This document shows, in pieces, positions 34,527-34,805 of a stretch of DNA of 42,338 nt. The DNA is taken from the UHGV virus genome UHGV-0127092; one strand, 5' to 3'. How positions within the stretch are numbered: position 1 is the first letter of the stretch; every line of letters starts with the position of its first letter. The notes under the pieces are model-generated. The model made no database searches and was not told the DNA's origin. It saw nothing but the letters and a program-made list of their open reading frames with translations. The position numbers were made by a program, and so were the translations under genes. This stretch comes from a virus.

Positions 34527-34583
34527 AAGCTGATAGATAAAGCATTTCTCCCGCATCAGCGGGTAACTAAGTGGAGAGTACGT

Positions 34584-34772
34584 ATGCACAAGTGTCAATT
34601 CTGTGGGTACTTTCTGGCATCTGAAGAGATGCAGAGAATATCTGTAAACATGGTTGGCAGGCCTTACAACATCTGCATTCCATGCTCAGAAAAGTACAAA
34701 AAGAAAGGCCTGTGGGATTCGGCAAAAAACGATATCGACTGGAAATCACTTCCATGCGTCGATGAGACATAA
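34584..34772 (+). CDS. Small zinc-ribbon-like protein
   Basis: 62 aa with CQFCG...CIPC Cys pairs; preceded by the 17-bp repeated stem-loop element. Confidence 0.45.
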   Translation: MHKCQFCGYFLASEEMQRISVNMVGRPYNICIPCSEKYKKKGLWDSAKNDIDWKSLPCVDET

Positions 34773-34805
34773 CCGCATCAGCGGGTAACGACAGAGGGTA
34801 AGTCA

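What the first reader, a model, noticed from the sequence alone, without database searches (positions are those of the whole stretch)
34550..34789. Perfect 17-bp repeat CCGCATCAGCGGGTAAC (stem-loop CCGC-ATCA-GCGG) positioned 16-17 nt upstream of two consecutive start codons
Two identical copies (about 34550-34566 and 34773-34789) each sit just upstream of the RBS of successive early genes (starts 34584 and 34806). Each can form a short hairpin. Identical placement relative to the start codons suggests a shared RNA-level element, such as a processing or stability site, a translational operator, or a boxB-like protein-binding hairpin.
Basis: seen in the sequence. Interest (0 to 1): 0.5.

Follow-up and report, generated by a model that had tools for sequence, protein, structure and literature searches.

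The report
Duplicated junction hairpin of phi80-type leader
The two identical 17-base hairpins are two copies of one highly conserved non-coding junction that sits in front of the first early-left gene of phi80-like prophages; it is doubled here because a small extra gene was recombined into it, and it marks a hotspot where these phages swap dozens of unrelated early genes.

Summary
In detail: CCGCATCAGCGGGTAAC occurs exactly twice (34551-34567 and 34773-34789, + strand), each 16 nt before an ATG. They are not two independent regulatory sites. The 17-mer is the near-invariant core of a ~50-nt non-coding island (AAAGCATTTCTC-core-GACAGAGGGTAAGnnnATG). This island occurs in phage phi80 (upstream of its "N" gene), in HK225, in over 120 IMG/VR contigs, in 112 E. 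coli genomes and in 9 other Enterobacteriaceae species.

In the window the island is split. A 222-bp cassette carrying a 62-aa zinc-ribbon gene sits inside it and duplicates the core. E. coli 730V1 has the empty site, and the identical cassette occurs in four other flank combinations.

The left half of the island is the 3' strand of a covariation-supported long RNA stem homologous to the stem in the lambda N leader. The right half is homologous to the lambda N ribosome-binding region. The hairpin lies in a discrete 20-nt insertion between them.

The hairpin-bearing junction precedes at least 52 unrelated gene families, none N-like. The hairpin-less lambda junction almost always precedes N. The hairpin's molecular role is unproven. 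A boxB-like operator is disfavoured. The best guess is a 5'-UTR structural hairpin that also provides short homology for cassette exchange.

The parts
33984..34012 (+). pL-type early-left promoter (TTGACT-17-AATAAT), embedded in repeated operator-like ATAACCA/TTAACCA palindromes
   Evidence: Promoter scan and sequence. Conservation across more than 100 related loci begins at 34018, about where the transcript would start.
34018..34062 (+). Conserved 5' leader of the pL transcript (island 1)
   Evidence: Shared by about 100 of 125 related loci, while the promoter and operators upstream differ. Mean minor-allele fraction is 2.6%.
34077..34089 (+). boxA-like TGCTTTTTAACAA. The first 9 bases match what phi80's record annotates as 'nutL boxA'.
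   Evidence: Sequence, phi80 annotation and phi80 sequence.
34255..34298 (+). Long leader hairpin (19 pairs, GAAG loop). It occupies the position that the lambda/phi80-type long stem holds in relatives.
   Evidence: Fold gives -28.7 kcal/mol, z = -3.65. In L012-type relatives the junction island follows it directly.
34314..34526 (+). 70-aa ORF (PHROG 5305, unknown function). It is an optional cassette lying between the leader hairpin and the junction.
   Evidence: ORF list and PHROG match. It is absent in L012/L019-type leaders, where the junction follows the hairpin. It has no similarity to lambda N.
34539..34550 (+). Left half of the junction island, AAAGCATTTCTC. In relatives this is the 3' strand of the basal long stem, pairing with GGAATGTTTTG.
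   Evidence: Conservation profile, covariation and folds. In this window the usual 5' partner is absent.
34551..34567 (+). Copy 1 of the 17-mer core. The hairpin is C34550-CCGC / AUCA / GCGGG-34563, followed by the tail UAAC.
34568..34772 (+). Unique part of the inserted cassette: its own ribosome-binding region (TAAGTGGAGAGTACGT) plus a 62-aa CxxC...CxxC zinc-ribbon ORF (34584-34772, PHROG 19863).
   Evidence: It is absent from E. coli 730V1 and NCTC9040, which keep one core. It is 100% identical in L099, L003, L113 and HK225 in different flanks. PHROG match.
34773..34789 (+). Copy 2 of the 17-mer core. Only 4 pairs form because an A precedes it. It abuts the TAA stop of the zinc-ribbon ORF.
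34790..34805 (+). Right half of the junction island, GACAGAGGGTAAGTCA (Shine-Dalgarno GAGGG). It is homologous to the lambda N ribosome-binding region AAC(T)GACAGGAG.
   Evidence: Conservation profile and alignment with lambda.
34806..35474 (+). Occupant of the hypervariable slot in this window: a 222-aa Nmad5-domain protein
   Evidence: Pfam PF18757, E = 6e-31. It is one of at least 52 unrelated families found at this position.
35473..35631 (+). Island 3: an intrinsic terminator (GACCCGCTCCGGCGGGTTTTTT, the same CCCGC/GCGGG stem as the core hairpin) plus about 130 nt of conserved non-coding sequence. This is the right border of the slot and corresponds to phi80 tL1A.
   Evidence: Terminator scan, conservation and phi80 annotation.

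Best explanation
The two 17-mers are two copies of the core of a single conserved non-coding junction that precedes the first variable gene of the early-left (pL) operon in phi80-like lambdoid prophages.

Anatomy (shown). In relatives the pL leader ends in a long stem, GGAAUGUUUUGG...CCAAAGCAUUUC, which is homologous to the stem in the lambda N leader. This is followed by one U, the 5-bp hairpin CCCGC-AUCA-GCGGG, then UAAC-GACAGAGGG-UAAGnnn-AUG, which is homologous to lambda's N ribosome-binding region. Relative to lambda, the hairpin lies in a discrete 20-nt insertion (AUUUCUCCCGCAUCAGCGGG).

Origin of the repeat (shown). A 222-bp unit carrying a 62-aa zinc-ribbon gene lies inside the junction, so the left half plus core precedes the zinc-ribbon gene and the core plus right half precedes the Nmad5 gene. 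An empty site exists, and the identical cassette occurs in other flank combinations.

How it arose (inferred). The cassette was moved by recombination through the roughly 30-bp conserved arms. These phages encode RecE/RecT.

What the hairpin does (inferred, not shown). It is a structural RNA hairpin in the 5' UTR, placed between the leader stem and the Shine-Dalgarno sequence. The lambda version of that stem is cut by RNase III (from memory of the literature, not checked here). If phi80-type phages are cut at the equivalent place, the conserved island is essentially the mature 5' UTR. The hairpin would then act as a spacer and nuclease obstacle that gives whatever cassette follows a constant, N-independent translation start. 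Its invariant sequence also provides the homology for cassette exchange.
For: The repeat is exact and non-random.

The ~50-nt island is conserved from -14 to +35, with unrelated flanks in 105 unique contexts. BLAST coverage shows alternating conserved islands and variable cassettes, with breakpoints at 34567 and 34773.

The core is identical in 9 of 9 other Enterobacteriaceae species hit by a pattern anchored only on the flanks. The element is present in phi80 upstream of 'N' and in HK225 with the same two copies.

L001 is the empty site. The 239-bp core-to-core unit is 100% identical in 5 genomes, with 3 different left and 4 different right contexts.

Long-stem covariation: 9 pairs changed on both sides, 83 cells, score 0.215 against 0.067 in shuffles (0 of 500 reach it) and at most 0.038 when the partners are slid. 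Several one-sided changes keep a G-U pair, which fits RNA on this strand.

The lambda N leader has the same stem, including the single-A bulge, and a clean 20-nt indel separates the two junction types. No intermediate insert lengths exist in IMG/VR.

The hairpin-type junction precedes at least 52 unrelated families. The lambda-type junction precedes the N family in at least 103 of 120 loci.

No terminator-like site lies between pL and the hairpins. RecE is present downstream.
Against: No covariation supports the hairpin itself. It is invariant, and the exhaustive IMG/VR scans found only 7 related loci with a changed 5' arm. Three of these keep a G-U pair, four break a pair, and none is compensated.

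Its conservation is not greater than that of the neighbouring non-coding islands, so conservation alone does not prove a function of its own.

Predicted accessibility of the Shine-Dalgarno sequence and start codon is unchanged when the 20 nt are deleted or the stem is disrupted (0.53, 0.53, 0.52). Simple thermodynamic insulation is therefore not supported.

In the window itself the usual 5' partner of the left half (GGAATGTTTTG) is absent and a 70-aa ORF intervenes, so RNase III-type processing at copy 1 is doubtful.

The RNase III cleavage positions in lambda come from memory of the literature and were not verified here. About 16 occurrences have the core followed by a variant without a nearby Shine-Dalgarno sequence and ATG.
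Confidence: 0.6

Rival explanations
1. The hairpin has no function of its own. It is a relic, for example a terminator-like stem that lost its U tract, carried along inside a junction. That junction is kept uniform by frequent recombination and by selection on the neighbouring stem and ribosome-binding region. The repeat is purely a recombination scar.
For: The stem CCCGC/GCGGG is the same as that of the tL1-type terminator 35473-35498 and of terminators after other cassettes. No compensatory changes were found. Conservation is no higher than in the other islands. There is no predicted effect on Shine-Dalgarno accessibility. Lambda works without it.
Against: The 20-nt insertion is a discrete, fixed unit with no intermediates. 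The stem and tail vary about 5-7 times less per position than the loop. The insertion correlates almost perfectly with the type of downstream gene, N versus non-N.
Confidence: 0.2
2. The hairpin is a boxB-like or operator RNA site bound by a trans-acting protein, either an antiterminator, a translational repressor or a host factor, that controls the downstream cistrons.
For: It is a stable small hairpin at a fixed distance from the start codon, in the leader of the operon, directly upstream of the gene that phi80's record calls N. Its sequence invariance is compatible with sequence-specific recognition. The 70-aa first ORF of this window has a basic patch, KKRQKPRKQ.
Against: The downstream and nearby proteins are unrelated in different phages while the hairpin is invariant, so there is no cognate co-variation. 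The phi80 'N' and the 70-aa ORF show no similarity to lambda N. The loop is the most variable part, with 13 of 18 variant loci there. There is no second site in the rightward operon. No adjacent boxA is present; the boxA-like box lies about 470 nt upstream and phi80's record places its putative nutL elsewhere. No Rfam family matches.
Confidence: 0.12
3. The 17-bp core is the crossover site of a dedicated site-specific cassette-capture mechanism, analogous to integron attC/attI or a homing-endonuclease target. The zinc-ribbon cassette entered as a unit at that site, duplicating it.
For: The insertion is flanked by perfect direct repeats of the core, as after Campbell-type integration. The identical cassette is bounded by the core in every context. 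An HNH-like ORF abuts one copy of the element in L046.
Against: All other variation boundaries lie elsewhere: at the ATG, at the terminator or inside the long stem, not at the core. No recombinase is consistently adjacent. A 14-nt perfect hairpin does not resemble attC. The roughly 30-bp shared arms together with RecE/RecT are enough to explain the exchange. The cassette is only 222 bp.
Confidence: 0.05

Closest known systems
Lambda N-leader: long stem between nutL and the N ribosome-binding site, known as an RNase III processing site (my knowledge of Steege 1987, Kameyama 1991, Wilson 2002; RNase III regulation of lambda N mRNA is mentioned in PMC8708148)
   Same: The stem sequence is the same (GGGGUGUG/CACACC-A-CC, with the single-A bulge). 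The 3' strand is the same (CCAAAGC). The following ribosome-binding region, UAAC(U)GACAG(G)AG...AUG, is the same. The position after pL and a boxA-containing leader is the same.
   Different: Lambda lacks the 20 nt AUUUCUCCCGCAUCAGCGGG, so it has no small hairpin and its basal stem is 4-5 bp shorter. Its junction precedes N in at least 103 of 120 loci, whereas the hairpin-type junction precedes at least 52 unrelated non-N families. This window also has a different leader hairpin and an extra ORF upstream of copy 1.
Phage phi80 'N' upstream region and phage HK225 gp40-gp39 region (GenBank NC_021190, M11919, X13065, NC_019717)
   Same: The element is the same: 49 of 50 bases of the consensus match in phi80. 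HK225 has the same two 17-mers flanking the same 62-aa gene.
   Different: Neither record annotates the element. phi80 has a single copy and a different slot gene, a 98-aa 'N' named by position only that shows no similarity to lambda N.
boxB hairpins of nut sites (lambda, P22, phi21)
   Same: A small GC-rich 5-bp hairpin in an early-operon leader.
   Different: The loop is 4 nt (AUCA) and variable. There is no adjacent boxA, no nutR partner and no cognate arginine-rich N. The hairpin is invariant across phages with different slot proteins.
Short conserved boundary (linker) sequences proposed to mediate module exchange in mosaic phage genomes (Susskind-Botstein and Clark et al., as summarised in PMC3029335)
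   Same: It is a short conserved sequence between non-homologous modules. Homology breakpoints fall in it, and the identical cassette is found in different contexts.
   Different: Here the boundary is also part of a transcribed leader and ribosome-binding region with evident RNA-level constraint, and it is unusually clear. [quoted passage not shown]
Integron attC sites and gene cassettes
   Same: Promoterless small genes are stacked in tandem behind a common promoter and separated by a repeated hairpin-forming sequence.
   Different: There is no integron integrase, no attC architecture (R''-L''/L'-R' with extrahelical bases), and cassette borders are mostly not at the hairpin.
Intrinsic terminators of the same operon (tL1-type, window 35473-35498)
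   Same: The stem CCCGC/GCGGG is identical and the loop is 4 nt.
   Different: The core is followed by GUAAC rather than a U tract, so it is not scored as a terminator.

Membership tests
Lambda-type N-leader junction (leader stem + N-type ribosome-binding region) | Long stem GGGGUGUG.../...CACACC(A)CCAAAGC immediately upstream of the ribosome-binding region | tested here: inconclusive
   Met in most related loci carrying the element: covariation, folds, lambda comparison. In this window only the 3'-strand remnant AAAGCATTTCTC (34539-34550) is present. The 5' partner is missing, and a different hairpin (34255-34298) plus a 70-aa ORF lie upstream.
Lambda-type N-leader junction (leader stem + N-type ribosome-binding region) | Ribosome-binding region homologous to lambda's UAAC(U)GACAGGAG-N7-AUG | tested here: met
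   Copy 2 is followed by GACAGAGGGTAAGTCA-ATG, which aligns with lambda. Copy 1 is followed by a non-homologous ribosome-binding region of the same length.
Lambda-type N-leader junction (leader stem + N-type ribosome-binding region) | Downstream gene is an N-family antiterminator with an arginine-rich N-terminus | tested here: not met
   The slot holds Nmad5 here and at least 52 unrelated families elsewhere. The phi80 'N' and the 70-aa ORF give no alignment to lambda N.
Lambda-type N-leader junction (leader stem + N-type ribosome-binding region) | Cleavage of the stem by RNase III in vivo | not testable with these tools
   Needs 5'-end mapping in rnc+ and rnc- hosts. The stems are at least 21 bp, which is compatible with a substrate.
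nut site / boxB | Hairpin preceded at about 8-12 nt by a boxA (CGCTCTTA / TGCTCTTTAACAA type) | tested here: not met
   The upstream neighbour is AAAGCATTTCTC. The only boxA-like box is at 34077-34089, about 470 nt away.
nut site / boxB | Matching sites in both early operons (nutL and nutR) | tested here: not met
   There is no further match with up to 3 mismatches anywhere in the 42-kb window on either strand.
nut site / boxB | Loop is the recognition determinant and co-varies with the cognate N protein | tested here: not met
   The loop is the most variable part (ATCT, ATTA, ATCG, ATAA), the stem is invariant, and the slot proteins are unrelated.
Intrinsic (Rho-independent) terminator | GC-rich stem followed directly by a U tract | tested here: not met
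   The stem is followed by GUAAC. It is not reported by the terminator scan, which does report 35473-35498.
Conserved boundary sequence of mosaic phage genomes | Short sequence conserved between otherwise non-homologous flanks, with homology breakpoints inside it | tested here: met
   Conservation profile. HSP ends pile up at 34567 (103) and HSP starts at 34773 (112). E. coli hits break at the same points.
Conserved boundary sequence of mosaic phage genomes | Evidence of actual exchange: the same module in different contexts, plus empty and filled sites | tested here: met
   The cassette is 100% identical in 5 genomes with different flanks. The empty site is in E. coli 730V1 and NCTC9040.
Integron-like cassette site (attC) | Adjacent IntI-type recombinase and attC architecture, with cassette borders always at the site | tested here: not met
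   No recombinase lies next to it; the only integrase-sized ORF is at 41095-42333 at the prophage end. It is a 14-nt perfect hairpin. Borders of the other variable modules lie at the ATG, at the terminator or in the long stem.
Any curated RNA family (Rfam 15) | Covariance-model match | tested here: not met
   There is no match at gathering or at E <= 10 over 33950-34850, nor in the leaders of relatives.

The most novel reading that the evidence does not exclude
The invariant 17-bp core is not just passive homology. It would be the recognition or crossover site of a dedicated cassette-capture process at the first position of the pL operon. The agent could be a phage or host factor acting on the DNA or RNA hairpin, a homing-type nuclease, or annealing by RecT-type proteins favoured at the hairpin. 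phi80-like phages would then carry an integron-like, immediately-early expression slot for accessory or counter-defence genes.
Probability: 0.06. Interest if true: 0.8.

Novelty: new variant of a known kind. Interest (0 to 1): 0.45.

Why it matters
The element gives a simple sequence handle: the ~50-nt junction on one side and the tL1-type terminator island on the other. With it one can pull out the first gene transcribed from pL in a large group of enterobacterial prophages. That position holds at least 52 unrelated, mostly uncharacterised small proteins, of which 47 representatives gave only 3 Pfam hits. This is the kind of position where immediate-early host-takeover or counter-defence genes are expected.

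It is also an unusually clean natural example of module exchange through about 30 bp of conserved boundary sequence, a mechanism long proposed for mosaic phage genomes but rarely visible.

It shows that the phi80 gene annotated as N is only one of many occupants of this slot. How phi80-like phages read through their conserved tL1 terminator is therefore an open question.

Finally, the small hairpin distinguishes N-type leaders from non-N leaders. This makes its role directly testable by deleting 20 nt.

Tried and rejected
1. Rfam found nothing for the element or the leaders, at gathering threshold or at E <= 10. Only long-hairpin-like microRNA noise appeared.

2. ARAGORN was run on 16 related loci because the variable inserts contain T-arm-like GGTTCGAATCC followed by ACCA. 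It found no tRNA or tmRNA in the leaders. The 'ACCA' is simply the bulge plus the CC of the stem, so I dropped the idea of a tRNA-like RNase P substrate.

3. I searched for compensatory changes in the hairpin with four exhaustive IMG/VR scans, each excluding the canonical base at one position of the 5' arm. Only 7 related loci were found and none was compensated.

4. I tested by partition-function folding of 60 natural contexts whether the hairpin thermodynamically shields the ribosome-binding region. It made no difference.

5. I looked for intermediate insert lengths between lambda-type and phi80-type junctions and found none.

6. I considered a coding explanation, with an upstream ORF ending ...RISG-TAA inside the core. 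It fails because stop codons precede copy 1 and the upstream sequences are unrelated.

7. I considered a promoter within the element. The scan reports none.

8. The phi80/Lula genome paper, Wilson 1997 and 2002, and the Court 2013 review are not held in the library. The lambda RNase III cleavage coordinates therefore rest on my memory.

9. The HK022 put RNA was not compared, because I could not retrieve its sequence.

Full report
**Observation**

CCGCATCAGCGGGTAAC occurs exactly twice in the window, at 34551-34567 and 34773-34789 on the + strand. No further site appears at up to 3 mismatches, the chance expectation is 0.11, and 0 of 100 shuffles gave two matches. Each copy ends 16 nt before an ATG (34584 and 34806), with a Shine-Dalgarno sequence 7 nt before the ATG. 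The 4-bp hairpin folds at -6.3 kcal/mol and copy 1 has a fifth pair. In 50-nt context the energies are unremarkable.

**Genomic setting**

The window is a lambdoid prophage.
- An S24-peptidase repressor lies at 31173-31940 and a RecE-type exonuclease at 36548-39454.
- A pL-like promoter (TTGACT-17-AATAAT) lies at 33984-34012 among operator-like repeats.
- No terminator-like site lies on the + strand until 35473-35498.

Both hairpins therefore lie in the early-left transcript. The order is: leader, 70-aa ORF, copy 1, 62-aa zinc-ribbon ORF, copy 2, Nmad5 gene (Pfam E = 6e-31), terminator.

**The 17-mer is the core of a larger conserved junction**

In 105 unique contexts, conservation is high only from about -14 to +35. 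The consensus is CCAAAGCATTTCTC-core-GACAGAGGGTAAGGCG-ATG, and similarity falls to background on both sides.

A pattern anchored only on the flanks found the same core in 9 of 9 related hits in other Enterobacteriaceae: Citrobacter, Enterobacter, Scandinavium and Trabulsiella. The element is present in 112 of 5426 complete E. coli genomes. It also occurs in phages phi80, HK225, Klebsiella KO-TP1 and several Enterobacter phages.

BLAST of 33900-36600 against the collected loci shows an alternation of conserved non-coding islands and unrelated cassettes. The islands are the 5' leader at 34018-34062, the junction, and 35468-35631, which begins with the terminator. HSP ends pile up at 34567 and HSP starts at 34773.

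**Why there are two copies**

In the window the junction is split. Copy 1 carries the left half and copy 2 carries the right half.
- E. coli 730V1 and NCTC9040 are 99.7% identical on both sides but lack exactly 222 bp. They have one core between the 70-aa ORF and Nmad5.
- The 239-bp core-to-core unit is 100% identical in the window, L099, L003, L113 and phage HK225. Among these it is joined to three different left contexts and four different right contexts.
- Another locus, L046, stacks two complete modules.

The repeat is therefore the signature of cassette stacking at a conserved boundary. The shared arms are only about 29 bp (left half plus core) and 24-33 bp (core plus right half). These phages encode RecE/RecT. 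From general knowledge of recombineering, such enzymes can use homologies of this size, so I infer exchange through the arms. PMC3029335 summarises the long-standing idea of short conserved boundary sequences and notes that they are usually not identifiable, so this is a clear case.

**What the junction is at the RNA level**

In most relatives the left half is the 3' strand of a long stem whose 5' strand is GGAATGTTTTG. The inner stem differs between phages but stays complementary, for example GGGGTGTGGTG/CACCACACC, GGGATTGGATG/CATCCAATC, GGGCTGGC/GCCAGC and GGGGTGAGT/ACTCACC.

I built a 48-sequence alignment of the two arms with the 0-2-nt bulge removed. The register was chosen as the best of four, which is a bias towards pairing.
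- 95.7% of cells pair.
- 9 pairs change on both sides (83 cells).
- The covariation score is 0.215, against 0.067 in shuffles (0 of 500 reach it) and at most 0.038 when the partners are slid.
- Several one-sided changes give G-U pairs or improve a U-G pair, which fits RNA on this strand.

The hairpin helix never varies in this set, so it gains no support from covariation.

**Homology with lambda**

The lambda N leader reads ggctttggggtgtgtg...cacacaccaccaaagc|taactgacaggagaatccagATG. It folds into the same stem with the same single-A bulge. Alignment shows that the phi80-type junction equals the lambda junction plus a clean 20-nt insertion, ATTTCTCCCGCATCAGCGGG, between AAAGC and TAAC. No intermediate insert lengths exist in IMG/VR.

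From my knowledge of the literature, the lambda stem is the RNase III processing site of the N leader, and cleavage on the 3' strand falls at about CC|AAAGC. RNase III regulation of lambda N mRNA is mentioned in PMC8708148. The primary papers were not available, so the coordinates are unverified. If phi80-type leaders are cut at the equivalent place, the conserved island corresponds to the mature 5' UTR: 12 unpaired nt, the hairpin, then the ribosome-binding region.

**Correlation with the downstream gene**

Behind the hairpin-type junction I found at least 52 unrelated protein families in about 190 occurrences. Of 47 representatives, only three have Pfam hits (Nmad5, DUF2528, DUF551). They fall into 26 different PHROGs of unknown function. 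The phi80 protein annotated as N is one of these occupants and shows no similarity to lambda N.

Behind the lambda-type junction, sampled from 120 loci, the gene is an N-family protein in at least 103 cases. The 20-nt insertion therefore marks leaders that drive a hypervariable non-N slot.

**Variation in the hairpin**

Among loci retrieved by flanks only, 115 of the 133 related cores are canonical. Of the 18 variant loci, 13 change only loop positions 3-4, 4 change a single stem base, and 2 change the tail (one of these also has a loop change). The exhaustive scans for 5'-arm variants found 7 related loci. Three are C-to-T changes that keep a G-U pair, four break a pair, and none is compensated. 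The other non-coding islands are about as conserved as the core. The data thus show constraint on stem and tail, but they cannot separate structure from sequence recognition or from homogenisation by recombination.

**Tests of specific functions**

- boxB-like site: disfavoured. There is no adjacent boxA, no second site in the rightward operon, the loop is variable, and there is no cognate protein.
- Terminator: no U tract, although the stem is identical to that of the operon's tL1-type terminator.
- Thermodynamic shielding of the ribosome-binding region: not supported.
- Site-specific cassette site: unlikely, because other module borders lie at the ATG, at the terminator or in the long stem.

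**Conclusion**

It is shown that the repeat is one conserved phi80-type leader junction duplicated by insertion of a gene cassette. It is shown that the junction is transcribed RNA homologous to the lambda N-leader junction plus a 20-nt hairpin insertion. It is shown that the junction borders a hypervariable early-gene slot.

It is inferred that exchange proceeds by recombination in the short arms. It is also inferred that the hairpin is a structural 5'-UTR element, a spacer or nuclease obstacle next to a processing stem, which gives any cassette a constant, N-independent start. That role is the weakest step. I put it at roughly 0.4, against about 0.9 for the identity and origin of the repeat.

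Noticed in passing
L093 2026-2072 (also L013, L003, L133 and L135-type leaders): The variable apical domain of the long leader stem in the commonest variant contains a 47-nt sense-strand fragment of small-subunit rRNA (AGCTAGTTGGTGAGGTAATGGCTCACCAAGGCGACGA). Rfam's SSU clan matches it at E = 3e-7. Other variants carry T-arm-like GGTTCGAATCC. It is unexplained why pieces resembling abundant host RNAs sit inside a phage leader hairpin.
   Followed up: partly
window 34119-34232: The core of this window's leader is about 79% identical to an unannotated non-coding stretch in more than 100 phage records, including Stx2a-converting phages, APSE phages and Edwardsiella phage Edno5. 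It has no Rfam match. It may be an undescribed conserved leader RNA, and it follows a boxA-like TGCTTTTTAACAA at 34077-34089.
   Followed up: partly
related loci, 3' ends of slot genes (e.g. L046 about 1800-1830): 33 of 111 unique slot proteins end in -Ala-Ala. Their last codons and stop lie inside the shared terminator (AAA GCC GCC TAA CTGGCGGC-T run), so the 3' recombination border is in-frame within the terminator stem. Whether a common C-terminal AA affects protein turnover was not examined.
   Followed up: no
phi80 NC_021190 32494-32790 (L187 3548-3844): The phi80 gene annotated 'early transcription antiterminator protein N, similar to lambda N' has no detectable similarity to lambda N. 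It has no Pfam hit, and it is just one of at least 52 families at that position. The annotation appears to rest on position only.
   Followed up: yes
L046 (oriented) 954-1496: A 180-aa HNH/AP2-like ORF ends inside the left half of one copy of the junction (...tttAGCATTTCAC), in a locus that carries two complete junction modules. It may be a homing-type element using the conserved site.
   Followed up: no
L202 1501-1683 (E. coli ECONIH4): A homologue of the 62-aa zinc-ribbon gene (about 72% nucleotide identity) sits immediately after a true lambda-type N gene. It is followed by a terminator, GCCGCATAGTCGGCC-T run, that shares CCGCAT with the core. This could be the source of the microhomology that joined the cassette to the core.
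   Followed up: partly
window 23517-23590 (-) and 36409-36506 (-): Rfam gathering-level matches to the Salmonella island sRNAs isrJ (65 bits) and isrB (36.5 bits, just above threshold). The isrB-like match is antisense to the early-left operon, just upstream of recE.
   Followed up: no
window 32120-33528 (+): Two genes sit in the rex-like position between the repressor and pL: a DUF6932 protein (159 aa) and a 310-aa protein with no Pfam hit. Two strong terminators follow them. In relatives this position holds other cargo, for example a YafO toxin.
   Followed up: no
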